DNA from: a virus
Lineage: Duplodnaviria; Heunggongvirae; Uroviricota; Caudoviricetes
Reading direction: 5' to 3' (one strand)
IMG/VR virus record: IMGVR_UViG_3300010367_000170
DNA: 64,000 bases
Every line of letters starts with the position of its first letter. The first letter of the stretch is position 1. Of the stretch, positions 43,103 through 63,324 are shown piece by piece. The position numbers were made by a program, and so were the translations under genes. The notes beneath the pieces were generated by a model. It searched no databases and was not told the origin of the DNA. It saw only the letters and a program-made list of their open reading frames with translations.

Positions 43103-43111
43103 GAGACCTCC

Positions 43112-46537: not shown

Positions 46538-46546
46538 CGACGCCTC

Positions 46547-47023: not shown

Positions 47024-47032
47024 AGCGCACCC

Positions 47033-47655: not shown

Positions 47656-47696
47656 GGACGCCTCCCGGTCTGTTTCAGTGGTGACAAGCCAATGAA

Positions 47697-47759
47697 AACC
47701 CCCCAGAGCTTCAAGGTTCAAGCTCCTAATTGTCAGAACTTGCCTAGCTCTGGGGGGTT
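47697..47759. terminator. Hairpin AACCCCCCAGAGC ... GCTCTGGGGGGTT (13-bp stem, internal sub-hairpin) after the major tail protein gene
   Basis: Sits between the MTP stop (47801) and the chaperone start (47655). Confidence 0.5.
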
Positions 47760-47800
47760 GACGCCCGCTGTAACGGCAACGCACAGCCTAAACCGCAGGT

Positions 47801-48982: not shown

Positions 48983-49206
48983 TGCTGCTCACCTTCCTTC
49001 ATGTCGGCCACCGCAGCGGCGTCCTTGCGCTTCGTCTTAGGCTCCGACGGAGCCGGAACGTCCTCCAAGACGGTGAACCCGCCAAGAAGAGTGGGAAAAT
49101 CAATCTCCTCGCCAACGCCTACCTTGCGGCGAGGTTCGGAGGGATCGTCCGGGCTAGGCCAAACCATCAGGTCCTGCTCATAGCCGGTGTCGTTGCGTTG
49201 CCGCAC
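48979..49206 (-). CDS. Small acidic virion-module protein (75 aa)
   Basis: AGGAGACAACA then GTG. Stop overlaps the MTP start (GTGA). Confidence 0.5.
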   Translation of the reverse strand: MRQRNDTGYEQDLMVWPSPDDPSEPRRKVGVGEEIDFPTLLGGFTVLEDVPAPSEPKTKRKDAAAVADMKEGEQQ

Positions 49207-49215
49207 TGTTGTCTC

Positions 49216-49761
49216 CTAGTCGGTGAAGTCGCGGTCATCAATCGAATACGTGACAGAAGCCTGAAAGTCCACAGCCGACGTGATCGTGGACTCCGGGTCC
49301 GTGTATTCCACCTGGATCCCCGCCCGAGTACCGGTGACGTCCGACCCCTCAGCCGCTTGGAGGAACGCCCCGCCGTGGGTCTTGTCAGCACCGCCCGGCT
49401 GGTTCATGCCGATACCGCGAATCCTCAACAAAAGCATGTTGATGGCGACGTCAAAAGCCCTCTGGTCCTGTTCAGCGTTTCCCTGGCCGTTAGACAAAGG
49501 CCAACGCAGCCTCAAGGACATCTCGTAGGCCGCGATGGTGCGGTTGAACCCGAAACGCTCCACGCGGACGTTGGACCGCACCACATAGATCTGGGTCTTC
49601 CGGTTAGCAGGCGTACGCGGCACATACGCCTGCACGATGTCCCAAGGACCGCCGTCCGCCGCCATCAAAGACGGCAAACCGTCGGCCGTCGTTCCCGGCA
49701 GCGAAAGCCACAAAGCCTCCCGGTCGCAGGCATCCGCCGACGTGCGGAACGTTCCAGGCAT
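49216..49761 (-). CDS. Head-tail joining / tail terminator-type protein (181 aa), by position
   Basis: GGGAGG 4 nt before ATG. Confidence 0.6.
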   Translation of the reverse strand: MPGTFRTSADACDREALWLSLPGTTADGLPSLMAADGGPWDIVQAYVPRTPANRKTQIYVVRSNVRVERFGFNRTIAAYEMSLRLRWPLSNGQGNAEQDQRAFDVAINMLLLRIRGIGMNQPGGADKTHGGAFLQAAEGSDVTGTRAGIQVEYTDPESTITSAVDFQASVTYSIDDRDFTD

Positions 49762-49770
49762 CCGACCTCC

Positions 49771-50628
49771 CTAACGCTTCTTACGCCGCGCCGGAGCACG
49801 GCTCTGCATGGGTTTCGCTGGCTTCACCGACTTCTTAGCAACCTTCGGCCGGGGATGAGCCGCGCGCGTAGCAGCAGCCTTCTGTGATCTAGCCAGCTTC
49901 TGCTCCGGAGTCATCCGAGCGTTCGCCGCCTTGATGGCCTGGCTCATCTTGACCTTGCGCTCAGCCCTCTGCTCCGCCGTCATCGCCGCGTTGTGAGCCC
50001 TGATGGCCGCCACCAGCTTCAGCTTCCGCGCAGCCTTCTTCTCCACCGACATGTTGGCGTTGAGACGCTTCACAACCTCGGAGCGCTTGGCTTTCCGCGC
50101 AGCTCTCTGCTCATCAGTCAAAGCCGCCAGATGAGCCTTCAAAGTAGCTGCCCGCTTGACCTTCCGCGCAGCCCGCTCTTCAGGGGACAGCCTAGCCAAA
50201 GCAGCCTTGCGCTTCGCCGACATGTTGGCTCTGCGTGCCGCTCTCTGCTCCGGAGACATCGCCGCCAGATGGGCTCGCAGAGAAGCCTTCCTCTTAGCCG
50301 CGCGGGCCTGGCGTTGCGCAGGGGTCAGCTTAGCCAGAGCAGCCTTGCGTTTCGCGCTCATACTGGCCTTGCGTGCAGCCCTCTGAGCCGGAGACATCGC
50401 CGCGAGCTTCTTACGCATAGACGCCACGCGCTTGGCGGTCTGGGCTTTCCTCTGCGCCGCCGTCATCTTGGCGTTGCGCTTCTTGATAGCCGCAGACATC
50501 TTGGCCTTGCGCGCAGCCCTCTGAGCAGGGGTCATATGCGCTAGGCGCGCCTTCATCTTGGCGCGGAAAGCGTCTTTCTGTTTAGCGGTCCACTTGCGGC
50601 CCTTGCGGTGCTTCTTCTGGACAGGCAA
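49771..50628 (-). CDS. Highly basic Ala/Lys/Arg-rich protein built of ten tandem 23-aa repeats (285 aa)
   Basis: Repeat unit M(S/T)P(A/E)QRAARKA.MSAKRKAALA.L x10. Encoded by 69-bp tandem DNA repeats. Embedded in the head-tail gene block. Confidence 0.7.
   Translation of the reverse strand: MPVQKKHRKGRKWTAKQKDAFRAKMKARLAHMTPAQRAARKAKMSAAIKKRNAKMTAAQRKAQTAKRVASMRKKLAAMSPAQRAARKASMSAKRKAALAKLTPAQRQARAAKRKASLRAHLAAMSPEQRAARRANMSAKRKAALARLSPEERAARKVKRAATLKAHLAALTDEQRAARKAKRSEVVKRLNANMSVEKKAARKLKLVAAIRAHNAAMTAEQRAERKVKMSQAIKAANARMTPEQKLARSQKAAATRAAHPRPKVAKKSVKPAKPMQSRAPARRKKR
49842..50538. repeat. About 10 tandem 69-bp coding repeats
   Basis: 23-codon periodicity visible in the protein and in DNA (…GCCTTGCG…CGCAGCCCTCTG… recurring). 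Confidence 0.6.
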
Positions 50629-50631
50629 ATC

Positions 50632-51291
50632 TCACCGCCTGGTGTACGCCGTCAGGATCTCCATAGCGTCGAGCCGCAGGGCGTCTGGATCGTGGCCGTG
50701 CGAAGCCTGCGCAGGATCGAGCTGTTTCAACACCACCGATGCGGCCATGAATTCGGCCGCCTGCTCCAGGTCCAGGGGGACGGTGGAATACCCGCCGGAG
50801 TACGTCACGACGATGGTGGTGCCGGTGGGCACGTACGTGCCCAACTGGAACCGGCAGTGACCGGTGTCCGGTTCGTACTGCGTAGTGTTCGGTACCACGG
50901 CCTGCGTGCCGGAATAGGAACGCAGAAGCTCGATAGAGCTGATCGATCCGGTCCACATCTCCGGGTAACGCGCAGGGTGTTCCCGAACCCAGAAGTGTCG
51001 CACCAGCTGCGAGGAGCCGAGCGACTGGGCGCGGGACATACCGATCTGTGCCGACGGTTCCATTGGACCGGGGATCTCGGTGTTGTCGTCCACATCCATC
51101 ATCTGGGCCCGTTGTGTTTCGGTGATGGTGAACGGGGCCAGACGCCGGTCGGTAGCGGATTCACACATGCGGGTGGACCGCAGCATGATCCGGTCCAGGG
51201 CGGAGGGGGTGAAGTCGCGCACCAGGTCCGCGAACGCCCCTGACTGAATGATCGCGGAGGAACAGAGCGGCGTTGGGGCGTCAACGGGCAT
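50632..51291 (-). CDS. Head-tail connector-type protein (219 aa), by position
   Basis: TAGGAGCGCACC then ATG. Confidence 0.6.
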   Translation of the reverse strand: MPVDAPTPLCSSAIIQSGAFADLVRDFTPSALDRIMLRSTRMCESATDRRLAPFTITETQRAQMMDVDDNTEIPGPMEPSAQIGMSRAQSLGSSQLVRHFWVREHPARYPEMWTGSISSIELLRSYSGTQAVVPNTTQYEPDTGHCRFQLGTYVPTGTTIVVTYSGGYSTVPLDLEQAAEFMAASVVLKQLDPAQASHGHDPDALRLDAMEILTAYTRR

Positions 51292-51304
51292 GGTGCGCTC
51301 CTAT

Positions 51305-51568
51305 CTACTCGGAGATCTCGGTTTTCTTGGGGCGTCCACGCTTGGGCTTGGAGGGTTCGTCGTCGTCAGCGGGTTCCTGGGTGTTCTCCGGTTCCGTCTC
51401 CGGGTCCTCTTCCACGGGTTCGGCTTTTGGGGGTTCGGCTTCGCTGAAGCCGCCGTGGGGGATGTTGAGGAGTTCCCAGGCGAGTTCGTCGTGGACTTCG
51501 ATCACCTGTCCGTCGTGTTCCCACCGGTAGCCGGGAGCGTTTCCCGCCTGTGACTTCCGCAGATACAT
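51305..51568 (-). CDS. Small virion-module protein (87 aa), acidic/basic tail
   Basis: AAAGGCGGCAG then ATG. Confidence 0.55.
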   Translation of the reverse strand: MYLRKSQAGNAPGYRWEHDGQVIEVHDELAWELLNIPHGGFSEAEPPKAEPVEEDPETEPENTQEPADDDEPSKPKRGRPKKTEISE

Positions 51569-51674
51569 GCTGCCGCCTTTACGTCGTTTACCGGTTCCGG
51601 TAGCGTAGGTAACTCGTTACTCGGGTAGGTAGGTGCCTACCTGGTACAACACACTAACCCGGAGGAGAAGACCC
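51569..51674. promoter_or_regulatory. Divergent promoter/operator region with GTAGGTA iterons and palindrome AGGTAGGtgCCTACCT (51628-51643)
   Basis: GTAGGTA at 51606, GGTAGGTAGG at 51625-34, perfect 7-bp-arm palindrome, plus GTAACtcGTTAC (51610-21) spaced variant of the GTAACGTTAC palindrome. Confidence 0.45.
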
Positions 51675-51920
51675 GTGGATTACTTGGTGGTGCTCACCCT
51701 CGCCTACCGCGACGGCTCCCGCATGTGCTACGCCGACCACCGAGAAGTCGTCACCGTCGAAGCGGGCGACAAGACCAGCGACATCCTCCAGACCGCCCAC
51801 GACAAGATCGTCGCCGACAACAAGATCGGCAACCCCGAGGGCTGCTCCGTCACCTTCTGGAGCATCACCCCCAACGTTCTCATGCGTCCGCCCACCAACC
51901 GGCAGACAGGACGTAAGTAA
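51675..51920 (+). CDS. Hypothetical protein (81 aa), first gene of plus accessory block
   Basis: CCGGAGGAGAAGACCC then GTG 51675. Confidence 0.55.
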   Translation: MDYLVVLTLAYRDGSRMCYADHREVVTVEAGDKTSDILQTAHDKIVADNKIGNPEGCSVTFWSITPNVLMRPPTNRQTGRK

Positions 51921-51929
51921 GCTCCACGC

Positions 51930-52523
51930 ATGCCGACAACGCGCCCCGTCATCAGCTCCAAACCCATCCTCAGCTCCAAACTCCGCGTCGAACTACTACA
52001 ACGCCAAGGCCACGAACTCGTGATCAAAGCCAGCAACGAACGCGCCGAGATCGAAGTGAAACGAGCCGACCGCCAAAACCACACCGTCATCATCACCCCC
52101 GACGACGTACCGAGCCAACGCCGCAACAGCAAAACCTTCAAGAAATACCCGCAGTCCCTGCTCATCGCTCTCGCCATCCACGCCGCCTGCGACTGGAACG
52201 ACGAAGTGGACTACACCAACAAACTCGAACAAGCCACCGACGTAGACCCCACCGGCTGCGTCTGCATCATGTGCCGCGACGGACAACACGTACCCCTGAA
52301 CCGGGCCACCGCCATCAACATCGCCTACATCCTGCTAGGGAAGCAACGCAACAACACCGGACTCAACATCGACGTCGTCACCGAACACGTCGTCACCCCC
52401 GACAGCCACCTGACCCTGACCGACACCCCCCACTACGTGGAAGCCCGAGTCATGGACAACGGCAACTACCGCCGATACGACCTGCGGCCCTGGTGGGACG
52501 ACATACAGAAAGGACACACCTGA
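51930..52523 (+). CDS. Hypothetical protein (197 aa)
   Basis: ATG 10 nt after the upstream stop. Weak RBS. Strong coding bias. Confidence 0.55.
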   Translation: MPTTRPVISSKPILSSKLRVELLQRQGHELVIKASNERAEIEVKRADRQNHTVIITPDDVPSQRRNSKTFKKYPQSLLIALAIHAACDWNDEVDYTNKLEQATDVDPTGCVCIMCRDGQHVPLNRATAINIAYILLGKQRNNTGLNIDVVTEHVVTPDSHLTLTDTPHYVEARVMDNGNYRRYDLRPWWDDIQKGHT

Positions 52524-52894
52524 TGGGCTACTGGCCCCGCGCCACATTGTCATACGGCATCGACCTGCCCCGGTTCAACGCCGCAGACAACTCCTGGTAC
52601 CACCAGGACGCCCCGGAAGAAGCAGGCTCCGCCCTCATCCGCGAATCCCTCCCCGCCAACACCTGCGGCGTGATCGAACGGCCCGACGGCGGATACCGCG
52701 TCGTGGCCCGCTACTACAGCGCCGACGGCGGACGCGGCGCCAGGCCGGAACGCATCAGCGGCGAAGCTCTCATGCCGCCGGACAGCGCCGTCAACGATCT
52801 CCTGGAGGCCCTGAAACTGCTGCTGGGCGTAGAGAAACTGACCGACTTGGCAGGCGTCGAACCGGACTGGGTCCTGTCCGCCGCCACGATCTAG
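52523..52894 (+). CDS. Hypothetical protein (123 aa), ATGA-coupled
   Basis: ATG 52523 overlaps upstream TGA. Confidence 0.5.
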   Translation: MGYWPRATLSYGIDLPRFNAADNSWYHQDAPEEAGSALIRESLPANTCGVIERPDGGYRVVARYYSADGGRGARPERISGEALMPPDSAVNDLLEALKLLLGVEKLTDLAGVEPDWVLSAATI

Positions 52895-52903
52895 GGAACC
52901 GAG

Positions 52904-53641
52904 ATGAAACGGCGCGCCGTCACCGTGCCCGTCCTGTCGTACGGTCAACTGGCATTCCTGAACGCCATGACCGTCAGCAGTTTCTTCGCCGACCTCCACC
53001 ACCCGTACTGGCCGTTGAGGATGTTCTCCACGATCCTCAACGTCTGGTGCGTGTACTCCACGCTGCGCCTAATGACGCGAAACGGCCAGCCCCTCACCCT
53101 CACCGTAGGCAAGGAGAACCCCGACAGGATTTCGGCCGCGCCGGAGAAACGCGAACCGGCAGCGTTTCCCCCGGAACCCAACCAGTGTTTCGTCTGCGGC
53201 AACTACGACCCGCACCGCTTCGAGGTTTTCGGTGAAGCCGCGCACGCCACCTGCCTGGAATGGCTCGGAGACTGGCCCATGCCGTCCTGGCGGATCTGCT
53301 GCCGCGACCGGGCCGACAACCACGGCTTCCGAACCGACGGCTACATCGCCTACCGTGCGGGCCACTACCTGGTGGACCTGGGGAGCCTGCCCGGTACCGC
53401 AACCCGGCAGCAGATCATCGACCACTGCAACAGCAACACAACCCTGCGGCGCCGTCTCGACAGGGGACTGGTCGCTGAACTGGAGATGCCCAACGGGCGC
53501 ACCATCAGATACGACATCCCCGCGTCCGGGACACCCATCGACTCGGAGACAGCCAAAGCCTTCTACAACGAGGAAGGCTCGACCGTTGACGAACGGATGA
53601 TGGCCCTGTACCGCAAGAGAATCCTCAAGGAGAACGAGTGA
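52904..53641 (+). CDS. Hypothetical protein with Cys/His cluster (245 aa)
   Basis: GGGAACCGAG then ATG. CFVCG..H..CLEW..CCRD. Confidence 0.6.
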   Translation: MKRRAVTVPVLSYGQLAFLNAMTVSSFFADLHHPYWPLRMFSTILNVWCVYSTLRLMTRNGQPLTLTVGKENPDRISAAPEKREPAAFPPEPNQCFVCGNYDPHRFEVFGEAAHATCLEWLGDWPMPSWRICCRDRADNHGFRTDGYIAYRAGHYLVDLGSLPGTATRQQIIDHCNSNTTLRRRLDRGLVAELEMPNGRTIRYDIPASGTPIDSETAKAFYNEEGSTVDERMMALYRKRILKENE

Positions 53642-54135
53642 ACATTGACATGGAGAAGTGGACCCACCGCGCGGCTCCGCTCCTCATCGCCACCGTCGTC
53701 CTGTCGTCGCCCACGGTCCTGCTTCCGAGCAACTGGTGGGGACGTCTGATCAACACCGCCGTCGTTCTGCCGCTCGTGACGTTGGTGATGCTGAACCTGT
53801 ACCACGGCAAGAGGTTCTGCGAGTACTGCGCCGAAGACACGCCCGCCGACGGGCTGGCTACAGCTCGCCGCAAGTCCCGCACCCTCAAGTTCTACCACCG
53901 GTCCATCACCCCGTACGGGCTGGTGTACCTGGCGGCGATGCTGGCTGTCCCCAACATGTTGCCCCGGCTGTGGCCGTTTGCCGTCGCCTACGTCGCGTTC
54001 CAGCCTGGGCTGCTGTTCTTCATCTGGGCTACCCGCACCCACAACCTTCTGGAGCCGTGGTGCCCGTGGTGCAACGGCGGAGACGGCGGTTTGCGTGAGC
54101 CCTCCCCCGACCCCGTCATCCCCCAGAAGGTGTGA
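53638..54135 (+). CDS. Polytopic membrane protein (165 aa), GTGA-coupled
   Basis: At least 3 TM helices. C-terminal CPWCNGGDGG. Confidence 0.55.
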   Translation: MNIDMEKWTHRAAPLLIATVVLSSPTVLLPSNWWGRLINTAVVLPLVTLVMLNLYHGKRFCEYCAEDTPADGLATARRKSRTLKFYHRSITPYGLVYLAAMLAVPNMLPRLWPFAVAYVAFQPGLLFFIWATRTHNLLEPWCPWCNGGDGGLREPSPDPVIPQKV

Positions 54136-54395
54136 AAGCCGTGAGAGGTCACACGATTCCGCTGTGGTTCACGAACCTCGCTCGGTTCGCCCACGCCCCG
54201 GTCAACTTCGACCCGACCCGTGATCCGGAGTGGCTGGGCAACGAGGTCCAGGAGCAGTTGTACGGCGTCCACGTTCTGAAGCCGGGGGCACCCCGCATGC
54301 CGTTGCGGATCGTGTCCCTGGCCGAAGGGCTGCGCATGCCCCCGATAACGCCGGAGGATTGCCCTCCGGCCGGAGAGGAGACCCCCCGTGGGTGA
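54132..54395 (+). CDS. Hypothetical protein (87 aa)
   Basis: GTG overlapping the upstream stop (GTGTGA). Confidence 0.45.
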   Translation: MKAVRGHTIPLWFTNLARFAHAPVNFDPTRDPEWLGNEVQEQLYGVHVLKPGAPRMPLRIVSLAEGLRMPPITPEDCPPAGEETPRG

Positions 54396-54675
54396 GATCA
54401 TCGGCGCCGTCATCTCCCTGCTGTCCCTCGGAACCGGATACGGGCTAGGACGCATACGGCGCAGCAAGTCCCTGCCGAAACCGCCGAAGCTGAAATGCTC
54501 CTGCGACCACGGCCTGTCGTTCCACGACAAGGACACCGGACACTGCCACGGCCTCAACGAGAACAACCGGTACGAAGACGGCGTGTTCAGCTACTCCGAG
54601 CAAGAGCCGTGCACATGCCGCCAGTACGACGGGCCGGTGCCGTATGACACCTACGTGGCGAGGGAACTCACGTGA
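54388..54675 (+). CDS. Membrane-anchored Cys/His protein (95 aa)
   Basis: N-terminal TM IIGAVISLLSLGTGYGLG then CSCDHGLSFHDKDTGHCH. Confidence 0.45.
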   Translation: MGEIIGAVISLLSLGTGYGLGRIRRSKSLPKPPKLKCSCDHGLSFHDKDTGHCHGLNENNRYEDGVFSYSEQEPCTCRQYDGPVPYDTYVARELT

Positions 54676-54968
54676 TCTGGTACACCGTCTACCTCGTTGC
54701 CGGTCTGCTTCTCACGACCCTATTCCTGATCGACGTCCGTAGCATGCGGAAACACGCTGCCGAATGCGACCGGCATCGTGAGGCCAAAAGCTTCCTCGAC
54801 AAGCTGGATGAGTCCCCGCCTCTGTTGGGTTTGGTGTCCTGCTTCATGATCTTGCTGTGGCCGGTCGTGGTGTTCATGTTCCTGATGTCGCTCTTCGACG
54901 ACGATGATGATGACGACAACGAGGACGACAACGACCCGCAGACCAGAGTGCCGGTGCAATACCGATGA
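54672..54968 (+). CDS. Two-TM membrane protein with poly-Asp tail (98 aa)
   Basis: GTGA-coupled. DDDDDDDNEDDND tract before the C-terminus. Confidence 0.5.
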   Translation: MIWYTVYLVAGLLLTTLFLIDVRSMRKHAAECDRHREAKSFLDKLDESPPLLGLVSCFMILLWPVVVFMFLMSLFDDDDDDDNEDDNDPQTRVPVQYR

Positions 54969-55084
54969 TCACTCTGATCCTGGGAGCTGTGTTGTTCATC
55001 GCCTCCGGCACCCTGATGGGAATCGCAGACTGCTGGGACTACCTGAAAGCCCTCCGGGGCAGCCGACACCGCAAGGAGGAGTAG
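54965..55084 (+). CDS. Tiny membrane protein (39 aa), ATGA-coupled
   Basis: ITLILGAVLFIASGTLMGIA. Confidence 0.4.
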   Translation: MITLILGAVLFIASGTLMGIADCWDYLKALRGSRHRKEE

Positions 55085-55299
55085 TGCCGTACGCGCCGTT
55101 GAAGGATGAGCCGTACCCGCCGGAGGAATCGTGGTTCCTGGTTGTGTGGCTCGATGAGGAGGAAGCCTGGTGCCCCACCCGGCCATCCACAACCAAACCC
55201 GAAGCCTTGGAGGCGTTGAACAAGATGCGTCAAGCCGACCCGGACCGCATCGTGCGCCTGGTGCGTGAGAACCGTTTCTACAGTACGGAGGCGGACTAG
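55084..55299 (+). CDS. Hypothetical protein (71 aa)
   Basis: AAGGAGGAG then GTG 55084. Confidence 0.5.
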   Translation: MPYAPLKDEPYPPEESWFLVVWLDEEEAWCPTRPSTTKPEALEALNKMRQADPDRIVRLVRENRFYSTEAD

Positions 55300-55739
55300 T
55301 GACTGCTTACATCAGGGTAGCGGCAGCAGCCACGGCGGTGGCGGTAGGGGCCATCCTCGGTCTCGGAGCCCACCCCGGCAACCGGAAACCAACTGCTGTC
55401 GCTTCGGCAGCGCAGAGCTTGCTCTACGCCCAGCGCGTCGGCTGCACCCTCACCTGGACCGGGCGTGACGCCGTCGTGTTCACCGACACGCCCTGCCTCG
55501 CCGTCCCGGGCTTCACTACCGTAGCCGGGTACGCCCCGCCGACCGGCGACCGGCGATTCGGGGTTGTCTGCGCTCTGCGTAGCGGAGACGCCTTCAACGT
55601 CATCGCCAGCCGGGGCGGCGACGACAACGCCGGTCTGCTCTGCGACGCCATCATCGGCAAGGGCTGGAGCGAAGATCCGCAGATGGGTGACGACTTCGAC
55701 AACGTGATTCAGGAGAGTTCCCGTGCAGTCCGCGCCTGA
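55299..55739 (+). CDS. Putative secreted protein (146 aa)
   Basis: N-terminal signal-like AAAATAVAVGAILGLGA. GTG start after TAG. Confidence 0.5.
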   Translation: MTAYIRVAAAATAVAVGAILGLGAHPGNRKPTAVASAAQSLLYAQRVGCTLTWTGRDAVVFTDTPCLAVPGFTTVAGYAPPTGDRRFGVVCALRSGDAFNVIASRGGDDNAGLLCDAIIGKGWSEDPQMGDDFDNVIQESSRAVRA

Positions 55740-56112
55740 GACGGTTTCGGTTGCCGACAAGGCTTGGGCCACGTTCATTCCTGATCGTCGCCCCGCCTTC
55801 AAGGCCCACAACACGCTGGGTCAGGCGAAGAACGCCGTCATCAACATCAGCCGGTACGGCGCTCGTACCGGGTTCACCGAAGACATGGTGATCTACAAGT
55901 TGGGCGAGGACGGGCAGTACGCGCCTTGGCTGAAGATCGCCCGGGGTACGTTCCGCAACGACTACAAGGAACTGGCGGAGAAGCCGCAGAGCCGTTCCGA
56001 CAGGATGGGCGAGGTTCTGCGGCTGGAGAGGAGCCTGAGGTACCACCTCGATGAGGCGATACGTCTCCGCGTAGAGATCGAGGTGCGGCGTAAGGAACTG
56101 GAGGGGTCGTGA
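55723..56112 (+). CDS. Hypothetical protein (129 aa)
   Basis: CAGGAGAG then GTG. Confidence 0.55.
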   Translation: MQSAPETVSVADKAWATFIPDRRPAFKAHNTLGQAKNAVINISRYGARTGFTEDMVIYKLGEDGQYAPWLKIARGTFRNDYKELAEKPQSRSDRMGEVLRLERSLRYHLDEAIRLRVEIEVRRKELEGS

Positions 56113-56303
56113 GCGGGCACCGCGTGGAGCTGAAAGTCAGCTTCTGGGTTGAGGACGGTGCCGTGCGCCAGGACGTCGAGACTGTGATCAGCGTCTTGGA
56201 GGCTGCGGCGTACGAGCGGGGAGTCAGCGATTTCCGGGCGACGCCGTCCACGGTGGACGGCAATGGATGGTTCGAGAAGTACGGCTACGAGGAGAAGCGA
56301 TGA
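56109..56303 (+). CDS. Hypothetical protein (64 aa), GTGA-coupled
   Basis: GTG overlaps the upstream stop. Confidence 0.45.
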   Translation: MSGHRVELKVSFWVEDGAVRQDVETVISVLEAAAYERGVSDFRATPSTVDGNGWFEKYGYEEKR

Positions 56304-56536
56304 CTGGTGCGGAGCATTACAAGGCTGCCGAGAATCTGTTGGCGGCGTTGGAGGAAGCGTCGGAGAAGGCGCGGGAGAACGGTTCCGGCGGGTTGGAGCC
56401 TGCGACGGTGATGGCGATCCTGGCGAAGGCTCAGGTCCATGCGACGTTGGCGGATGCTGCGGCGAACGCGTTGTATGAGCCGGAGGACGGGTTGCCGGAG
56501 CCGTCGCGGACGCAGTGGTTGCGGGCAGCGAACTAG
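56300..56536 (+). CDS. Hypothetical helical protein (78 aa), ATGA-coupled
   Basis: ATG 56300 overlaps upstream TGA. Confidence 0.45.
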   Translation: MTGAEHYKAAENLLAALEEASEKARENGSGGLEPATVMAILAKAQVHATLADAAANALYEPEDGLPEPSRTQWLRAAN

Positions 56537-56553
56537 CCTCTGGAGTCTGGTGG

Positions 56554-56581
56554 AGCCCCTTCGGCACAGCTCGAAGGGGCT
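56554..56581. terminator. Hairpin AGCCCCTTCG-gcacagct-CGAAGGGGCT then TT
   Basis: Intra-block terminator between 56536 and 56647. Confidence 0.5.
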
Positions 56582-56646
56582 TTACGGCGCTTAGCCTTTC
56601 CAGTATCGTTGCTACTGCAAGCACACGACACCGGAGGAGAAGCCAA

Positions 56647-57006
56647 ATGGACACCATCGACCGAGCCCGCAGCTACGGCGTCCGGATGGACGAGTCGCTG
56701 GACTCCGCCCAAATCGCCGAGATGCACGCCGTCAAACGCGAAGAGACCGTGTCCCTGAGCGACAAGCGCCTGGCCCGCATCACCCGCCTCCGCCTCATCG
56801 GCTACAACTCCCGCGAATACCCCCGCTGGGACATCAGCTACTGCTACGGCGAACTGAAGGACGGCACCCCGGTGCGCGTGCAGCTCTACGGCAACATCGG
56901 CCGCAACTGGAAGGGCGACCTGATCAAGATCGCCCAAGCCGCAGGCGTCTTCGCCAAGGGCCTGGGCCTACTGGACGAAGACATCGTCAGCCGCCTGTAC
57001 GGCTGA
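56647..57006 (+). CDS. Hypothetical protein (119 aa)
   Basis: CCGGAGGAGAAGCCAA then ATG. Confidence 0.65.
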   Translation: MDTIDRARSYGVRMDESLDSAQIAEMHAVKREETVSLSDKRLARITRLRLIGYNSREYPRWDISYCYGELKDGTPVRVQLYGNIGRNWKGDLIKIAQAAGVFAKGLGLLDEDIVSRLYG

Positions 57007-57111
57007 ACCTGACCTCAAGGCCGAAACGCCCCACCCGGGAGGGTCGGACGTCGGACGGTGAGCACCGTCCCTGACGATGGCCGTCAGAAACCAAGAACCG
57101 GAGGAACGGCC

Positions 57112-57600
57112 ATGAACACCCGCCTGACCCGACTCGCCACGGCAACGCTCGCCGCTGCCGCTCTGGCCCTGATCCCCACCACCGCCCACGCCGGACAGTC
57201 CAACGGACCCGGACTCCCCAGCAGCCCCTCCACCTGGACCTGCCGCCAGTACAACCACATCCAGCCCTACACGTACCACGGCGTGCAATCCGAAGCCTGC
57301 GACGGCTACGCGCCCGACAGCAACAAGTTCGGAGGCGACGTGGACGCCATCGTGTGGAACGCTCGCGGCGTCCTGAAGTCCTGCACCGTACAGCTGAACA
57401 CGGTCCGCAACCACCGCGCCTACCCGATGCGCGGATACAGCGCCACCTCCAAGGCCATCGACAACGGCCACGTCTGCGACGCCCAGGCATTCTGGAAACT
57501 GCCGCGCGGCTACTACAACGTCACCACCAAGTACCAGTCCACCGGCGGCGTGCGGTACGAGACCGTACAAGGACCCGTCGTCTACTGGCCCGGCAGCTGA
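57112..57600 (+). CDS. Secreted Cys-containing protein (162 aa; Sec signal peptide)
   Basis: CCGGAGGAACGGCC then ATG. MNTRLTRLATATLAAAALALIPTTAHA cleavage-type signal. 4 Cys. Confidence 0.65.
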   Translation: MNTRLTRLATATLAAAALALIPTTAHAGQSNGPGLPSSPSTWTCRQYNHIQPYTYHGVQSEACDGYAPDSNKFGGDVDAIVWNARGVLKSCTVQLNTVRNHRAYPMRGYSATSKAIDNGHVCDAQAFWKLPRGYYNVTTKYQSTGGVRYETVQGPVVYWPGS

Positions 57601-57675
57601 CCGGGTCCGGTCCCGCCCAGACCATCACCCTGGGCGGAAGCCAGATCCATTCAGAACCGGCAACCGGAGGAACCC

Positions 57676-57861
57676 ATGTCCGCATGGCTTGACATCACGA
57701 AAGGTCACCCGCCCGTCGTCCACTTCCACCCCGACGCGTGCCGCGTCATCAACGCCGACACGATCGCCCACCAGAGCCTCAACGCCCGCACCGCCGCCAA
57801 CGGCGTTACGAACCGACAGTGGGGCCTGTGCACCGACTGCAACCGAAACCCGAAACTGTAA
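57676..57861 (+). CDS. Small Cys/His protein (61 aa)
   Basis: CCGGAGGAACCC then ATG. Confidence 0.55.
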   Translation: MSAWLDITKGHPPVVHFHPDACRVINADTIAHQSLNARTAANGVTNRQWGLCTDCNRNPKL

Positions 57862-57875
57862 CCGGAGGAACAGAA

Positions 57876-58265
57876 GTGAACGACACCAAACCCGGACGGC
57901 ACGCCCTCAAGCCGCCGCTGCCGCAGCGCATCCCCGGCCAGTCCCTGACCGACGCCTACGCCGCCGAGCAGCTGGCCGAGCAGGAGGAGACCCGGCTGAA
58001 GGCTCAGCGCCTCGACGACGTCCACGCCTGGCTGAGCGCGTGGTACCGCTCCTGCGTCGTCCACGTCCAGCTGTACAAGCAGCGCGTGTACGCGGAGGTG
58101 CTGTACATCATCGAGACCGGCAAGCTGCCCGCCGACGACCTGGCGGCTATGGCCGAGTTCGAGAAGAACCTGTACAACACCGCCCTGGCGGCCATCGAGG
58201 AACAGAACGGGAGGACCCAGTGGAGTTCGAGAACCTGCCCGCGACCATGCAGAACGCGGCGCTGA
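57876..58265 (+). CDS. Hypothetical protein (129 aa)
   Basis: CCGGAGGAACAGAA then GTG 57876. Confidence 0.5.
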   Translation: MNDTKPGRHALKPPLPQRIPGQSLTDAYAAEQLAEQEETRLKAQRLDDVHAWLSAWYRSCVVHVQLYKQRVYAEVLYIIETGKLPADDLAAMAEFEKNLYNTALAAIEEQNGRTQWSSRTCPRPCRTRR

Positions 58266-58705
58266 ACGGCGGACACATCATCGTCCACGGCACCGGAAGC
58301 TTCAACGCCCACCTCGCGTCCGCCTACAAGCGTTGGGACAACGCCAAACACCTCATGTGCGACGGCTGCGACAACCTGGCCGAGGAAGGCGCGTACGACA
58401 TCATCCCCGTAGAGGTGCCGCAGCCGCTTCTGGCGCTGCTCGACACCAACGTGCGGATCCAGGCCGCGCTGCGCGTGACGAGACGTCTGTACCTCGACGC
58501 GGTCACGCGCGGGGACACCGGAGTGCCGCTCCTGACGATCCTGTACGCCCTGGAGAACGGTGTCGAAGACACCGCCATCACCAAGGACGACACGGGATGG
58601 GAGGCGTTCGTCAGAGACCGGCGCTTCGAAGCCGAACTTGTCATCGCTGACCGCAAGCGCAAGGCTTTGGAGAACCTGCGCAAGGCTTCGGAGAGTCCGG
58701 AGTGA
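58220..58705 (+). CDS. Hypothetical protein (161 aa)
   Basis: GGGAGGACCCA then GTG 58220. Overlaps the previous gene by 46 nt. Confidence 0.5.
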   Translation: MEFENLPATMQNAALNGGHIIVHGTGSFNAHLASAYKRWDNAKHLMCDGCDNLAEEGAYDIIPVEVPQPLLALLDTNVRIQAALRVTRRLYLDAVTRGDTGVPLLTILYALENGVEDTAITKDDTGWEAFVRDRRFEAELVIADRKRKALENLRKASESPE

Positions 58706-59166
58706 GCATCGCCTGGGAGGCGTTCGTCAACGCGGACGACGCGAACGAATACGCCCATGTCACCTACCGCAACGCATCCCACAACGCCGGTAACATCATC
58801 GAGCTTGACGATGAGGTCGTCTGCATCGACGTGCGCACCACGAAGCGCAGCGGCAAAGGGGCGGATCACGTGTACCGGTTCTTTCCGAACGGTGTCGTAG
58901 ACAAGGGCACGCCTGGACCGTTTGTTGCCGCAGACCCCAGCGCCGATCCGGCTACGCAGGCTCCGGATGACGCCACCCGCGCCGTCAAGGCCATGCTGAG
59001 AGACATCGCCGCAGACATGACCGGCGCCTACGTGCACAACGTCAGCCACGCCTTCCGGCTCCACGACACCCCGGGTGGCGCAGGTTCGGAGTACGCGCAT
59101 CGCTACCTCGCGGAACAAGGACGGCGCATCGCGGAAGTTCTCCGCCGTACCGCCGACACCCTCTAG
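58702..59166 (+). CDS. Hypothetical protein (154 aa), GTGA-coupled
   Basis: GTG overlaps upstream TGA. Confidence 0.55.
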   Translation: MSIAWEAFVNADDANEYAHVTYRNASHNAGNIIELDDEVVCIDVRTTKRSGKGADHVYRFFPNGVVDKGTPGPFVAADPSADPATQAPDDATRAVKAMLRDIAADMTGAYVHNVSHAFRLHDTPGGAGSEYAHRYLAEQGRRIAEVLRRTADTL

Positions 59167-59224
59167 GCGCAACGCTCCGCACCTCCGGAACCGGCCCGTG
59201 CGTCCCTAGGCCGGACACGACAGA

Positions 59225-59254
59225 AAGCCCCCTACGGACAGCCGTAGGGGGCTT
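59225..59254. terminator. Bidirectional terminator AAGCCCCCTACGG-acagc-CGTAGGGGGCTT
   Basis: Sits between convergent plus-block end (59166) and capsid gene end (59443). Confidence 0.7.
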
Positions 59255-59442
59255 CTGCGTGTAACTAAAGCCCCACCAATCCCTCGGGAGGGTGAGGAAC
59301 AATCGGATGCCGCGTGTCCGGCCCACCGCATCCACTAGGGGCTCTCAACGCCGTACCTGAACCATCCCAGATTGACCACAGAACTAGCCGACGAACGCCC
59401 TGTGATCAGTTGTGGCCTTACGTCGCCGGGGCCACCAACAGA

Positions 59443-60822
59443 CTAGATGGTCGCCACAACGCGCGACAAACGACCAGCGTACTTCGGAGCCCGCAACGCC
59501 AACGTGGTGTCCGTCAACACCGCGAACGGCAGCGTGTCCGGAGCCGTCACCGTCGGAGCCAGAGGCAGAATCTGCATGTTCCGGGTGTAAGGACGCACCA
59601 AGAAGTTCGGATCCATCGACAACAGATAGATGTCCTCGTACGCGTTCTGGCCCGACGCCACCGGACGAGGCTTAGCGCCCGCGTTCGTGCCCACGTAAGC
59701 CGTGGTGCCGGTAACCCCAGACGAGTTCGTCAACAAGTTCGAACCAGTGTCCACGATCGTGGTCACAGCCACGCCCGTGGTGTCGAACGCATCCACAACA
59801 CCCAGCAACGTCTCCGTGCCGGTACCCGTCGAGCGGTACACCTTGTACAGGATCGGGCTGGCGTTGTCCGGCAGACCGGTCGGCGTCGAGAACGTCAACG
59901 TCACCGTAGAAGTAGAACCCGACGTGGCCTGCGAAACCTCAGTCGAAGCAGCGATCTCACCGAACCGCGACACAACCGCAGTCACCTGGTAGTAGTACGT
60001 CGCAGCCGCCAACGAACCAGTCGTGGTGGCCGTCGCCGTGGCAACCGCCCCCATCTGGAACGTCTTAGGCGACAGGAACGACGACTTCACCAGCGGAATA
60101 CCACGGTACGTCGGCACATTCAAACCGCCGCCCAGGTTCGTCGTCGGCGCGGCGAACCGCTGCTGCGAAACGAACAGCTGCGAAATAGCCGACACCATAC
60201 GGCCCGACATAACCATCATCCACGGCGAACCGTCGATCGGCATAGCCGCGTTGGACTCCACCAGGTCGATCAACTCGTCCAGCTTCGCCAGGGACACGCT
60301 GCCGTTGACGTCCTGCGCGTTCACGAACGCGTTGGAGCCGGTACCGGCAGTCCAGTTCGACACCAGGTAGTCCAAGCCCGAAGACATCGGCTGAACACCG
60401 TTGGTGGTAGCCGGGTCGTTACCCCAGATGAACGCGTTCTCGATAGACCACAGCATCGACTGAACAGTGCCGTCGAGCTCAAGCTGCCGCAGGTCACCCA
60501 CGATGTCGCGGGTCACGGTCTGCGCGAAACCAGTCACCGAACCCACAGCCTGGTACAGGCGGATGTTGTACACCGACTGCTCGTAGGTGCTGTTGCTGAT
60601 CGGACGAGCGCCACCGTCGATGACAGCGCCGGAGTCCGGCCGGTTCACGCGGCGGTTGAAGAAGTACTGCGTGGAGTTCCACTGCTTCGTTGGGATAGCC
60701 GCCAACATAGGCGAATACCGGCGCTGGTACTCCAGCAAAACCGGGTCGATAGCCTTCGGGATGAGCGGGCTGACAGTGCCCGCCGTAGTCACTGCCTCTT
60801 CAAGAAGAGTCATGTTAGACAT
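59443..60822 (-). CDS. Major capsid protein (HK97-fold type, 459 aa)
   Basis: AAAGGAC then ATG. Position after the protease/scaffold gene. Long Thr/Ala-rich insertion. Confidence 0.85.
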   Translation of the reverse strand: MSNMTLLEEAVTTAGTVSPLIPKAIDPVLLEYQRRYSPMLAAIPTKQWNSTQYFFNRRVNRPDSGAVIDGGARPISNSTYEQSVYNIRLYQAVGSVTGFAQTVTRDIVGDLRQLELDGTVQSMLWSIENAFIWGNDPATTNGVQPMSSGLDYLVSNWTAGTGSNAFVNAQDVNGSVSLAKLDELIDLVESNAAMPIDGSPWMMVMSGRMVSAISQLFVSQQRFAAPTTNLGGGLNVPTYRGIPLVKSSFLSPKTFQMGAVATATATTTGSLAAATYYYQVTAVVSRFGEIAASTEVSQATSGSTSTVTLTFSTPTGLPDNASPILYKVYRSTGTGTETLLGVVDAFDTTGVAVTTIVDTGSNLLTNSSGVTGTTAYVGTNAGAKPRPVASGQNAYEDIYLLSMDPNFLVRPYTRNMQILPLAPTVTAPDTLPFAVLTDTTLALRAPKYAGRLSRVVATI

Positions 60823-60853
60823 ATCAAAAGTCCTTTACTGGTCTTAGGGCTGG

Positions 60854-62818: not shown

Positions 62819-62827
62819 GGGCTTCTC

Positions 62828-63316
62828 CTATGTGTACGAGATGGTCATAGCAGGGTTGGTGGCGGCACCCTTCAAGGTGATGCCGTTCAGGGCGGGAATC
62901 TCGAAGTCCCCCACCGAACCAGCGGCAACCGCAGCCGGGAACACCCCGATGATCGTGCCGCTGCCTGCGCTGGCGTTGTCGTAGAACGCTGTGACAGCAG
63001 CCCCGGCTGTGCTGGTCACCAGTACCCGGCAGAGCCTTCCGGCGGACGCTTTGACGACCGTGTCCGTGGCGACCCCGGCTGCCACGGCCGCCGTGGTGGT
63101 ACCGCTGGTGGTGACCTGCACTGTCGCCGCGATGGACACCGGCTGCGTAACAGCGGAGCCGTCCACCTTCACGGCGTTCGCCGCCGTGACCGCCGCAAGC
63201 CGGGTAGTGGAGCCGTCCTGGATCTGCGTGAAACCAGGGGTTGAAGAGGATGTACTGCCGCCGGTGATCACGTTCTCGTTGTCGTCAACCGGCGTGTACC
63301 GAGGATGAAGAGGCAT
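62828..63316 (-). CDS. Hypothetical head-module protein (162 aa), Thr/Ala/Val-rich
   Basis: CTAGGAGCCAGC then ATG 63316 right after the MuF-like stop. The listed longer ORF start overlaps the upstream gene. Confidence 0.5.
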   Translation of the reverse strand: MPLHPRYTPVDDNENVITGGSTSSSTPGFTQIQDGSTTRLAAVTAANAVKVDGSAVTQPVSIAATVQVTTSGTTTAAVAAGVATDTVVKASAGRLCRVLVTSTAGAAVTAFYDNASAGSGTIIGVFPAAVAAGSVGDFEIPALNGITLKGAATNPAMTISYT

Positions 63317-63324
63317 GCTGGCTC

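What the first reader, a model, noticed from the sequence alone, without database searches (positions are those of the whole stretch)
51569..59442. 7.6 kb opposite-strand accessory block splits the virion-structure operon between capsid and head-tail genes
- **Expected layout:** MuF-like, protease-scaffold and major capsid genes run on the minus strand from 64000 to 59443. Head-tail, tail and lysis genes resume on the minus strand at 51568.
- **What interrupts it:** about 20 small plus-strand genes lie in between. They have their own divergent promoter region (GTAGGTA iterons/palindrome at 51606-51643) and convergent terminators (59225-59254).
- **Content:** the block is rich in membrane proteins (53638, 54388, 54672, 54965) and signal-peptide proteins (55299, 57112), with no recognisable enzymatic domain.
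- **Interpretation:** this looks like a moron/accessory island (superinfection exclusion, host takeover or defence/anti-defence cargo) inserted at a position that is normally uninterrupted in siphoviruses.
Basis: partly seen in the sequence, partly recalled or inferred. Interest (0 to 1): 0.6.

Follow-up and report, generated by a model that had tools for sequence, protein, structure and literature searches.

The report
Accessory gene island splitting phage structural operon
A soil actinobacterial phage of about 100 kb carries a 7.9 kb block of 20 small non-structural genes, read backwards, between its capsid gene and its head-tail genes; related phages show it is a lineage-specific, fast-changing accessory island, a known kind of feature whose cargo here has no assignable function.

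Summary
Window 51569-59442 holds 20 plus-strand genes between the minus-strand major capsid gene (59443-60822) and the head-tail connector gene (51305-51568). The block starts at a conserved 106 bp divergent control region and ends at a 13 bp perfect hairpin terminator.

Synteny supports the interpretation. All 35 non-redundant relatives with capsid identity of 79% or less have capsid and connector genes 0.27-1.9 kb apart, co-directional. Only the closest clade has an opposite-strand island here, 4.1-11.2 kb long. Gene content turns over: 16 of 19 genes tested are shared with the nearest relatives, 1-6 with others.

A second assembly, 99.96% identical across both junctions, excludes a chimera.

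No window gene matches Pfam, PHROGs (one unknown-function family excepted), PADLOC or PDB. Seven of 20 look membrane-bound or secreted. Sister islands carry GntR-Rnl1-RlaP-PNKP RNA repair genes and a 2H phosphoesterase, which suggests host-interaction or counter-defence cargo.

The island lies just downstream of a capsid-gene hairpin found in every relative examined, so it sits at an existing transcript boundary.

A conserved, sub-threshold type II hammerhead-like element (57019-57089) precedes the secreted-protein gene.

Verdict: a real accessory (moron-like) island, a new member of a known kind, of moderate interest.

The parts
51305..51568 (-). Head-tail connector gene (87 aa). First gene of the minus-strand operon that resumes after the island.
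   Evidence: phrog_748, E 8e-4. It is the syntenic gene directly after the capsid gene in most uninterrupted relatives.
51569..51674 (.). 106 bp divergent control region.
- Candidate -35 TTTACG at 51578-51583.
- Candidate -10 TAGCGT at 51601-51606.
- Motif GTAGGTAACTCGTTAC at 51605-51620.
- 16 bp palindrome AGGTAGG-TG-CCTACCT at 51627-51642.
- Ribosome-binding site GGAGGAG before b01.
   Evidence: - 81-86% identical to L074 and L076; its motifs also recur in L037.
- TA(A/G)CGT is also kept in the more distant L031.
- The palindrome is kept through a both-sides change in L076 (AGGTAGC..GCTACCT).
- Both motifs are unique in the window.
- The sigma-70 consensus scan found nothing here, so promoter function is inferred.
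51675..51920 (+). b01, 81 aa, soluble. Conserved promoter-proximal gene.
   Evidence: Ribosome-binding site and GC3 pattern. 69-72% identity in L074, L076 and L037; 48% in L031.
51930..52523 (+). b02, 197 aa. Conserved anchor gene of the island. The N-terminal alpha-beta-beta-beta-alpha unit has a weak dsRBD-like fold.
   Evidence: - Only 6 homologues among 5.8 billion proteins, all from this phage clade.
52523..52894 (+). b03, 123 aa, acidic.
   Evidence: Ribosome-binding site. 35-46% identity in L074 and L076.
52904..53641 (+). b04, 245 aa. Hydrophobic N-terminus followed by a conserved CxxC...HxxC-EWLGDW motif.
   Evidence: 18 cluster representatives among 1.84 billion, with variable C-termini. 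No Pfam or PDB hit.
53638..54135 (+). b05, 165 aa. Membrane protein with 3-4 helices and two CxxC pairs. Its slot is exchangeable.
   Evidence: - Hydropathy.
- 76% identity in L002 and 65% in L076.
- In L074 a 2H phosphoesterase gene sits in the equivalent slot.
54132..54395 (+). b06, 87 aa.
   Evidence: 71-77% identity in L074 and L076.
54388..54675 (+). b07, 95 aa. Weakly hydrophobic N-terminus; Cys/His-rich.
   Evidence: 62-65% identity.
54672..54968 (+). b08, 98 aa. Two membrane helices and a poly-Asp tail.
   Evidence: Hydropathy. 41-47% identity in L074 and L076.
54965..55083 (+). b08a, 39 aa. Single-helix membrane peptide.
   Evidence: ATGA overlap with the b08 stop codon. Conserved in L074, L076 and L077. 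Called independently.
55084..55299 (+). b09, 71 aa, acidic.
   Evidence: Ribosome-binding site. 82% identity in L074. The UBact hit is below the Pfam threshold.
55299..55739 (+). b10, 146 aa. N-terminal signal peptide or membrane anchor.
   Evidence: Hydropathy. 54-66% identity in relatives.
55723..56112 (+). b11, 129 aa, basic.
   Evidence: 67-80% identity in L074, L076 and L054; 50% in L031.
56109..56303 (+). b12, 64 aa.
   Evidence: 51% identity in L076. Absent from L074 and L054.
56300..56536 (+). b13, 78 aa. The only PHROG match in the block.
   Evidence: phrog_16141 (unknown function), E 8.5e-10.
56550..56585 (+). Internal terminator-like hairpin after b13 (GAGCCCCUUCG...CGAAGGGGCUUU).
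   Evidence: The gap 56537-56646 folds with z = -3.8. A near-identical hairpin is present in L076.
56647..57006 (+). b14, 119 aa.
   Evidence: Ribosome-binding site. 71-78% identity in L074 and L054; absent from L076.
57019..57089 (+). Type II hammerhead-like element. Predicted cleavage is 3' of C57052, 60 nt upstream of the b15 start codon.
   Evidence: - RF02276 scores 27.6 bits (gathering score 37), so it is below threshold.
- The core GAAA, GUC and CUGACGA is present.
- The same element sits at the same place in L054, L074, L077 and L081.
- Stem I shows an A-U to G-C change on both sides.
- It is 94% identical to L074, against 74-81% for the flanking genes.
57112..57600 (+). b15, 162 aa. 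Secreted protein with a Sec signal ending AHA|GQ and a four-Cys beta-sandwich.
   Evidence: - The signal peptide varies while the mature part is highly conserved in 8 homologues.
57603..57648 (+). Hairpin after b15.
   Evidence: The gap 57601-57675 folds with z = -3.1.
57676..57861 (+). b16, 61 aa.
   Evidence: Ribosome-binding site. 64% identity in L054 only.
57876..58265 (+). b17, 129 aa.
   Evidence: 52-68% identity in close relatives and 37% in L031.
58220..58705 (+). b18, 161 aa (152 aa if it starts at 58247).
   Evidence: 32-58% identity in relatives. The NTP_transf_8 hit is below threshold.
58702..59166 (+). b19, 154 aa. Last gene of the island.
   Evidence: 30-41% identity in L074 and L076.
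59225..59254 (.). Convergent (bidirectional) terminator hairpin: 13 bp perfect stem, 4 nt loop. A second hairpin follows at about 59270-59296.
   Evidence: Nearly identical in L031, L074 and L076. Lies in the most conserved 100 nt of the aligned region.
59255..59442 (.). 188 bp non-coding spacer between the terminator and the capsid gene stop codon.
   Evidence: Only spurious ORFs overlap it here; no ORF passed the GC3 filter. The same interval holds a small Cys-rich ORF in L002 and L031 and two small genes in L074.
59443..60822 (-). Major capsid protein gene (459 aa). Last gene of the head operon before the island.
   Evidence: phrog_752, E 1.2e-30. PF17236 SU10_MCP in relatives.

Best explanation
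**What it is.** The block is a lineage-specific, fast-turnover accessory gene array, a multi-gene moron-like island. It is not part of the virion and it is not an assembly artefact.

**Where it sits.** It lies at a pre-existing transcript boundary: just downstream of a strong hairpin that follows the capsid gene in all 12 uninterrupted relatives examined, and upstream of the head-tail connector gene.

**How it is likely expressed (inferred, not shown).**
- It is read on the opposite strand from a conserved 106 bp divergent control region.
- That region has a candidate promoter (-35 TTTACG, -10 TAGCGT) and a 16 bp palindrome that looks like an operator.
- The same region must also restart transcription of the connector and tail genes, because capsid-gene transcripts stop at the shared convergent terminator (59225-59254).
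- Two internal hairpins subdivide the array.
- A hammerhead-like ribozyme would cut the secreted-protein gene b15 free as its own mRNA.

**What the cargo is.**
- All 20 are small proteins. Homologue searches on four of them found relatives only in unnamed metagenomic proteins, mostly from this phage clade.
- Seven are predicted to go to the cell envelope.
- In sister phages the same array carries GntR-Rnl1-RlaP-PNKP RNA-repair genes or a 2H phosphoesterase.

**Most likely role.** This is where the lineage keeps host-interaction genes. I propose counter-defence functions, plus envelope-acting functions such as superinfection exclusion. Individual genes are swapped between relatives.

**Shown versus inferred.** Shown: anatomy, synteny, gene turnover, conserved non-coding elements and the cargo of sister islands. 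Inferred: promoter use, expression timing, ribozyme activity and the function of every gene in the window.
For: **Synteny**
- All 35 non-redundant relatives are uninterrupted.
- Seven complete islands of 4.1-11.2 kb occupy the same junction in the closest clade.

**Gene turnover**
- 16 of the 19 genes tested are shared with each of L074 and L076, at 30-82% identity. Capsid identity there is 91-92% and tail tube identity 87-91%.
- Only 1-6 genes are shared with L001, L002 and L031, whose capsid proteins are still 89-90% identical.

**Insertion site**
- A hairpin follows the capsid gene in all 12 uninterrupted relatives examined.

**Conserved non-coding elements**
- The control region and terminator are conserved, and the palindrome survives a change on both sides.
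- The array contains internal hairpins.
- The hammerhead-like element is conserved at the same position in relatives.

**Cargo**
- Envelope targeting is predicted for seven proteins.
- Sister islands carry RNA-repair genes and a 2H phosphoesterase.

**Origin and integrity**
- Codon usage matches the phage's own non-structural genes (r = 0.96) and differs from the flanking structural genes (r = 0.76).
- An independent assembly is 99.96% identical across both junctions.

**Precedent**
- Hammerheads flank single genes, including the anti-restriction gene ardA, in prophages (PMC3088659).
Against: - No window gene matches Pfam, PADLOC or PDB. The only PHROG match is to a family of unknown function.
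- The window contains no RNA-repair gene. The counter-defence role therefore rests on sister islands alone.
- No consensus sigma-70 promoter was found in the control region.
- Expression timing is unknown.
- The array is largely collinear with the two nearest relatives, so it behaves partly as a stable operon.
- Its codon usage is the same as that of ordinary non-structural genes, so it could simply be a relocated early operon.
- The hammerhead-like element is below Rfam's threshold and has a C-A mismatch in stem III in the window copy.
Confidence: 0.6

Rival explanations
1. Relocated ordinary early or middle operon. The block is a piece of the phage's normal non-structural gene set (host takeover, replication helpers) that a rearrangement placed inside the structural module in the ancestor of this sub-clade. 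On this view it has no special accessory or defence-related role.
For: - Codon usage is indistinguishable from the left-arm plus-strand genes (r = 0.96, as high as split-half controls) and it lies on the same strand.
- It is largely collinear with L074 and L076.
- No defence or anti-defence domain was found in the window.
Against: - Content differs sharply among phages whose capsid proteins are about 90% identical: L001, L002 and L031 share 1-6 of the 19 genes tested.
- Slots are swapped for RNA-repair or 2H phosphoesterase genes.
- Envelope-targeted small proteins are common in the block.
- There are no paralogues elsewhere in the window.
Confidence: 0.25
2. Prophage-expressed lysogenic-conversion morons. 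The block is transcribed from the integrated prophage while the structural genes stay silent. Its products modify the host envelope or exclude other phages.
For: - Related capsid genes lie in Streptomyces and Catenulispora genome assemblies, one in a 758 kb contig, so the family probably includes temperate members.
- The block has its own control region, its own terminator and the opposite orientation.
- Seven of 20 products are envelope-targeted.
Against: - No integrase or repressor was identified in the window, although only some genes were scanned.
- The clade that carries the island is known only from metagenomic contigs of about 100 kb.
- RNA-repair cargo in sister islands serves lytic growth rather than lysogeny.
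Confidence: 0.12
3. Artefact: an assembly chimera at 51.6 or 59.3 kb, or spurious ORFs produced by high GC content.
For: High-GC DNA produces many long spurious ORFs on both strands.
Against: - An independent assembly from another sample is 99.96% identical over 49112-64000.
- Gene lists on 31 kb and 91.6 kb contigs agree with mine apart from the b05 start and the b17/b18 boundary.
- The same architecture appears in L074, L076, L031, L002 and L079.
- All 20 ORFs have the coding GC3 pattern or a ribosome-binding site, and each has a conserved homologue.
Confidence: 0.01

Closest known systems
Morons in lambdoid phages such as HK97 and HK022 (Hendrix and colleagues; cited from my own knowledge)
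   Same: - Extra DNA lies between two genes that are adjacent in relatives.
- It is bounded by its own regulatory region and terminator.
- It is not needed for virion structure.
- Its content varies between close relatives.
   Different: - This block is a 20-gene, 7.9 kb array on the opposite strand, not a single co-directional gene.
- Its composition matches the phage's own non-structural genes rather than looking foreign.
- Expression from a prophage has not been shown.
Accessory or anti-defence hotspots inside phage late regions, such as the anti-CRISPR loci in the head-gene region of Mu-like Pseudomonas phages and the P2/P4 hotspots (cited from my own knowledge)
   Same: - The position is fixed between conserved morphogenesis genes.
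- The cargo differs between otherwise similar phages.
- Sister islands carry counter-defence-type genes (RNA repair).
   Different: - No known anti-defence gene is present in the window.
- Orientation is opposite to the structural genes.
- The array is much larger and partly collinear among the nearest relatives.
T4 Pnkp plus Rnl1 tRNA repair against anticodon nucleases (cited from my own knowledge)
   Same: Sister islands L002 and L079 encode an Rnl1-type ligase (PF09511), a PNKP kinase-phosphatase (PF25109) and RlaP.
   Different: The window island has none of these. A target nuclease is unknown.
Hammerhead ribozymes flanking single genes in prophages (Perreault et al. 2011, PMC3088659)
   Same: - The element is intergenic, directly upstream of a single accessory gene within a polycistronic phage block.
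- The catalytic core nucleotides are present.
   Different: It scores below Rfam's gathering threshold (27.6-32.6 bits against 37). There is one copy only, and cleavage is untested.
Actinobacteriophage structural operons interrupted by non-structural genes, such as Arthrobacter Cluster AL (PMC5513430)
   Same: A canonical head-tail gene order broken by non-structural genes in some clusters.
   Different: That paper gives no detail of a capsid-connector, opposite-strand array of this size. No sequence relationship exists: the INPHARED DNA searches found no match.

Membership tests
Moron (independent transcription unit inserted in a phage late operon) | Present between two genes that are adjacent in related phages | tested here: met
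   35 of 35 relatives with capsid identity of 79% or less have the capsid and connector genes adjacent. The island is found only in the closest clade (capsid identity 88-93% where measured).
Moron (independent transcription unit inserted in a phage late operon) | Own terminator | tested here: met
   13 bp perfect hairpin at 59225-59254, z = -5.2, conserved.
Moron (independent transcription unit inserted in a phage late operon) | Own promoter | tested here: inconclusive
   A conserved 106 bp region has candidate -35 and -10 hexamers and a palindrome. The consensus scan found nothing there.
Moron (independent transcription unit inserted in a phage late operon) | Composition different from the neighbouring genes | tested here: inconclusive
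   Codon usage differs from the flanking structural genes (r = 0.76; GC3 0.85 against 0.78) but equals the phage's own non-structural genes (r = 0.96).
Moron (independent transcription unit inserted in a phage late operon) | Expressed independently of late genes, for example from the prophage | not testable with these tools
   Requires RNA-seq or reporter assays.
Phage counter-defence (anti-defence) locus | Contains a recognisable anti-defence gene | tested here: not met
   - No Pfam, PHROG or PADLOC hit of that kind for the 19 window proteins scanned; the 39 aa b08a was not scanned.
- No RNA-repair homologue is present in the window.
- The feature is met only in sister islands.
- A dedicated anti-defence HMM library was not available.
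Phage counter-defence (anti-defence) locus | Cargo varies between closely related phages at a fixed position | tested here: met
   Presence/absence matrix across relatives.
Superinfection exclusion proteins | Small membrane-anchored or secreted phage proteins | tested here: met
   Hydropathy and signal-peptide reading for b04, b05, b07 (weak), b08, b08a, b10 and b15.
Superinfection exclusion proteins | Homology to a characterised exclusion protein, or an exclusion phenotype | tested here: not met
   No annotated PHROG or Pfam match. The phenotype cannot be tested here.
Hammerhead ribozyme, type II (RF02276) | Core nucleotides CUGANGA, GAAA and a cleavage triplet NUH, arranged around three stems | tested here: met
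   GGCC-GAAAC-[stem III]-GUC-[stem I]-CUGACGA-U-GGCC at 57019-57081.
Hammerhead ribozyme, type II (RF02276) | Score at or above Rfam's gathering threshold | tested here: not met
   27.6 bits in the window and 28.7-32.6 bits in relatives, against a threshold of 37.
Hammerhead ribozyme, type II (RF02276) | Stems supported by covariation | tested here: inconclusive
   - One stem I pair changes A-U to G-C, and one stem III pair changes C-G to U-G.
- L081 has different stem sequences, but MAFFT aligned it poorly.
- Only 5 distinct sequences were available.
- The window copy has a C-A mismatch in stem III.
Hammerhead ribozyme, type II (RF02276) | Self-cleavage | not testable with these tools
   Requires in vitro transcription.

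The most novel reading that the evidence does not exclude
The island could be an RNA-centred counter-defence locus whose long transcript is cut into single-gene mRNAs by self-cleaving RNAs.

In the window, the position directly upstream of the b15 family gene holds a hammerhead-like element. In sister islands L079, L002 and L082 the same position holds a different element: CGCCCC-[helix]-UAGGCG. That element has 5 of 7 helix pairs compensatory and no Rfam match.

It could be an undescribed self-cleaving or processing RNA that is functionally interchangeable with the hammerhead.
Probability: 0.1. Interest if true: 0.7.

Novelty: new member of a known kind. Interest (0 to 1): 0.4.

Why it matters
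- **A place to mine.** The work defines a fixed, comparably bounded locus in an uncultured clade of roughly 100 kb actinobacterial siphoviruses where host-interaction genes accumulate and are exchanged. Such hotspots are productive places to look for new counter-defence and exclusion proteins. The 20 proteins here belong to families seen almost nowhere else.
- **Why the site tolerates insertion.** A large insertion can be accepted inside a structural operon when it lands at an existing terminator. The downstream genes would then need a new start site in the island's divergent control region (inferred).
- **Testable RNAs.** The hammerhead-like element, and its alternative in sister islands, are candidates for RNA processing in phage accessory operons.

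Tried and rejected
**Searches that found nothing useful**
- DNA searches of INPHARED phages with the block and with the capsid region found no match. The protein search found only a 25% identity hit in Leptospira phages.
- PHROG, Pfam and PADLOC scans of 19 of the 20 block proteins (the 39 aa b08a was found later) gave one unknown-function PHROG and several sub-threshold hits (UBact, NTP_transf_8, DUFs). I do not rely on any of them.
- PDB sequence searches for b04, b15, b18 and b19 found nothing significant.
- tblastn of the island proteins against the window found no paralogues.

**Structure prediction**
- The b15 model (pLDDT 62.6) gave only generic beta-sandwich matches.
- The afdb50 fold library was not available.

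**Ideas rejected**
- GTAGGTA repeats as iterons: the motif is not enriched.
- A consensus sigma-70 promoter in the control region: the scan found none.

**Technical limits**
- A covariance model built from four near-identical hammerhead copies was too narrow. It scored L081 at only 16.7 bits.
- One Rfam call failed because it exceeded the size limit.

Full report
**1. Context**

The window has 63% GC and no nucleotide match among 50,697 deposited phage records. GC3 frame analysis shows three strand blocks:
- plus-strand non-structural genes from 1 to about 35.8 kb;
- minus-strand lysis, tail and head-tail genes from 35.8 to 51.6 kb;
- a plus-strand block from 51.6 to 59.2 kb, followed by minus-strand head genes to the end of the window.

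- Major capsid protein at 59443-60822 (phrog_752, E 1e-30; SU10_MCP in relatives).
- A 654 aa protein in the protease-scaffold position, with only a weak hit, and a MuF-like protein at 63325-63939.
- A small connector-like gene at 51305-51568.
- Tail tube and tape measure genes.
- A GH25 endolysin at 37272-38276.

Proteins identical to those of the window lie on contigs of up to 100,012 bp, so the genome is about 100 kb. Related capsid genes occur in Streptomyces and Catenulispora assemblies.

**2.

Ribosome-binding sites and GC3 define 19 plus-strand genes. A twentieth, encoding a 39 aa membrane peptide at 54965-55083, overlaps the preceding stop codon and is conserved in three relatives. An independent gene call on other contigs of the same phage gives almost the same 20 genes; it differs only at the b05 start and the b17/b18 boundary. 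Each of the 20 has a homologue in at least one relative.

- **Right boundary.** The hairpin at 59225-59254 has 13 nt perfect arms and folds far better than shuffled sequence. It lies in the most conserved 100 nt of the aligned region (92-94% identity).
- **Left boundary.** The intergenic region is 106 bp long. The GTAGGTA repeats are not enriched. They are nonetheless part of a motif, GTAGGTAACnCGTTAC, and a 16 bp palindrome that are conserved in L074, L076 and L037 and unique in the window. In L076 the palindrome reads AGGTAGC..GCTACCT in place of AGGTAGG..CCTACCT, a change on both sides that keeps the symmetry.
- **Candidate promoter.** The hexamer TA(A/G)CGT, 17-18 nt downstream of TTTACG, is conserved in all five sequences, including the distant L031. 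It is my candidate promoter. This is inference, because the consensus scan found nothing there.

**3. Synteny**

Scans seeded with the capsid protein, and one with the neighbouring head-tail gene (window 50632-51291), returned 73 loci.

- **Uninterrupted relatives.** In all 35 non-redundant relatives with capsid identity of 79% or less, this head-tail gene (two genes after the capsid gene) starts 267-1,928 bp after the capsid gene ends. The few intervening genes are co-directional, apart from one small minus-strand ORF call in L020 that I take to be spurious.
- **Relatives with an island.** Only the closest clade (capsid identity 88-93% where measured) has an opposite-strand island at this junction. 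Complete islands measure:

| Source | Island length |
|---|---|
| L001 | 4.1 kb |
| L031 | 7.5 kb |
| Window | 7.9 kb |
| L074 | 8.1 kb |
| L076 | 9.0 kb |
| L079 | 10.6 kb |
| L002 + L039 | 11.2 kb |

- **Gene turnover.** L074 and L076 each share 16 of the 19 window genes tested, at 30-82% identity. L054 shares a collinear run (b10, b11, b13-b18). L031 shares six genes (a seventh, b08, gave only a weak 29% blastp match), L002 two plus a fragment, and L001 part of one. In these phages the capsid protein stays 89-93% identical and the tail tube 81-91%.
- **Reading.** The island was acquired in the ancestor of a sub-clade and has since been remodelled gene by gene.
- **Not a chimera.** L083, from another sample, is 99.96% identical over window 49112-64000.

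**4. Why this site**

All twelve uninterrupted relatives examined have a strong GC-rich hairpin directly after the capsid stop codon. The capsid-connector junction was therefore already a transcript boundary.

In the window, capsid-gene transcripts would end at the shared hairpins. The connector and tail genes would then need a start site in the 106 bp region (inferred).

**5. Internal organisation**

- Gaps after b13 and after b15 contain stable hairpins (z = -3.8 and -3.1).
- The gap between b14 and b15 gives a sub-threshold match to the type II hammerhead family (27.6 bits against a gathering score of 37).
  - The core is intact: GAAA, the cleavage triplet GUC and CUGACGA, around three stems.
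  - The same element sits at the same place in L054, L074, L077 and L081.
  - One stem I pair switches A-U to G-C.
  - The element is 94% identical to L074, while its flanking genes are 74-81% identical.
  - The window copy has a C-A mismatch in stem III. Activity is untested.
- Hammerheads that flank single accessory genes in prophages are documented (PMC3088659).

**6. Cargo**

- **Database scans.** Nineteen of the 20 proteins were scanned; the 39 aa b08a was found later. None has a significant Pfam or PADLOC hit, and the four searched against PDB (b04, b15, b18, b19) gave nothing significant. Only b13 matches a PHROG, and that family has no known function.
- **Homologue searches.** Searches among 5.8 billion proteins found 6-8 relatives each for b02, b05 and b15. 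All are unnamed or labelled hypothetical, and nearly all come from contigs of this clade. b04 has 18 cluster representatives that share a hydrophobic N-terminus and a CxxC...HxxC-EWLGDW motif.
- **Envelope targeting.** Seven of 20 products are predicted to reach the envelope. They are b04, b05, b07 (weak), b08, b08a, b10 and b15. The b15 family keeps its mature domain nearly invariant under a variable signal peptide.
- **Structure models.** b15 is a generic beta-sandwich. b02 has a weak dsRBD-like N-terminus.
- **Sister islands.** L002 and L079 share a GntR-Rnl1-RlaP-PNKP cassette. In L074 a 2H phosphoesterase occupies the slot that b05 fills in the window. The window has none of these genes.
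- **Codon usage.** The block matches the phage's own non-structural genes (r = 0.96) and differs from the flanking structural genes (r = 0.76). The genes therefore come from the lineage's own accessory pool, not from a source with foreign composition.

**7. Verdict**

The block is a multi-gene, opposite-strand accessory island at a natural transcript boundary in the structural module.

I think its most likely role is host interaction: counter-defence together with envelope-level functions. My confidence is 0.6. The gene functions in this window remain unassigned.

The main rival is that the block is simply a relocated ordinary early operon (confidence 0.25).

The kind of feature is known. Morons, accessory hotspots and interrupted actinophage structural operons have all been described (PMC5513430). 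This is a new member of that kind. The candidate ribozyme, and an unexplained covarying RNA element in sister islands, add some interest.

Noticed in passing
window 57019-57089 (+): A type II hammerhead-like element lies between b14 and b15. Its core is intact, it is below Rfam's threshold, and it is conserved at the same place in L054, L074, L077 and L081. Predicted cleavage is after C57052.
   Followed up: partly
L079:9909-9959 (+); L002:13300-13356 (-); L082:1035-1083 (+): In these sister islands the b15 homologue is preceded by a different conserved element, CGCCCC-[helix]-UAGGCG(R)(Y)CAC, not by the hammerhead. Five of its 7 helix pairs are compensatory across 3 sequences. It has no Rfam match and is absent from the window. 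Its function is unknown.
   Followed up: partly
L079:15400-16887 (-); window 63334-63993 (-) matches its C-terminal part: In relatives the MuF-like head protein of this phage family carries an N-terminal 2H phosphoesterase domain (PF13563). The window ends before that part of the gene.
   Followed up: no
L002+L039 (merged coordinates 31367-33550) and L031+L040 (27399-29648): A second block of small opposite-strand genes follows the tape measure gene in these two relatives. In the window, L074 and L076 the tape measure gene is followed directly by the gene for the 942-957 aa tail protein.
   Followed up: no
L002 about 11440-11610 and L031 about 11425-11575 (+); window 59255-59442: A small Cys-rich ORF (CxxCxGxG...CxxCxGxG, DnaJ-like zinc finger) lies just after the capsid gene on the same strand in L002 and L031. 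L074 has two other small genes there. The window has only a 188 bp non-coding spacer.
   Followed up: partly
window 6575-6648 and 6749-6822 (+): Two tRNA genes, Val (CAC) and Ile (TAT), lie in the plus-strand non-structural arm.
   Followed up: no
window 1-35800 compared with 35800-51568 and 59443-64000: Codon usage splits sharply by gene class. Non-structural plus-strand genes have GC3 of 0.87, structural minus-strand genes 0.78, and RSCU correlates at only 0.83 between them. Within each class, split halves correlate at 0.96-0.98.
   Followed up: partly
window 2635-4173, 28066-29226, 31770-32738 (+): The left arm encodes an AAA ATPase, a weak VWA-domain protein and an SPFH/Band 7 protein. Most of the large proteins there have no Pfam match.
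   Followed up: no
L013, L014, L015, L016 and L018, between the capsid gene and the head-tail genes: A homologue of the small head-region gene at window 62828-63490 sits downstream of the capsid gene in these relatives, not upstream. This is a small co-directional rearrangement at the same junction.
   Followed up: no
window 52904-53641 (+): b04 belongs to an undescribed family with a hydrophobic N-terminus, a Pro-rich linker and an invariant CxxC...HxxC-EWLGDW motif, followed by unrelated C-terminal domains (18 cluster representatives).
   Followed up: partly
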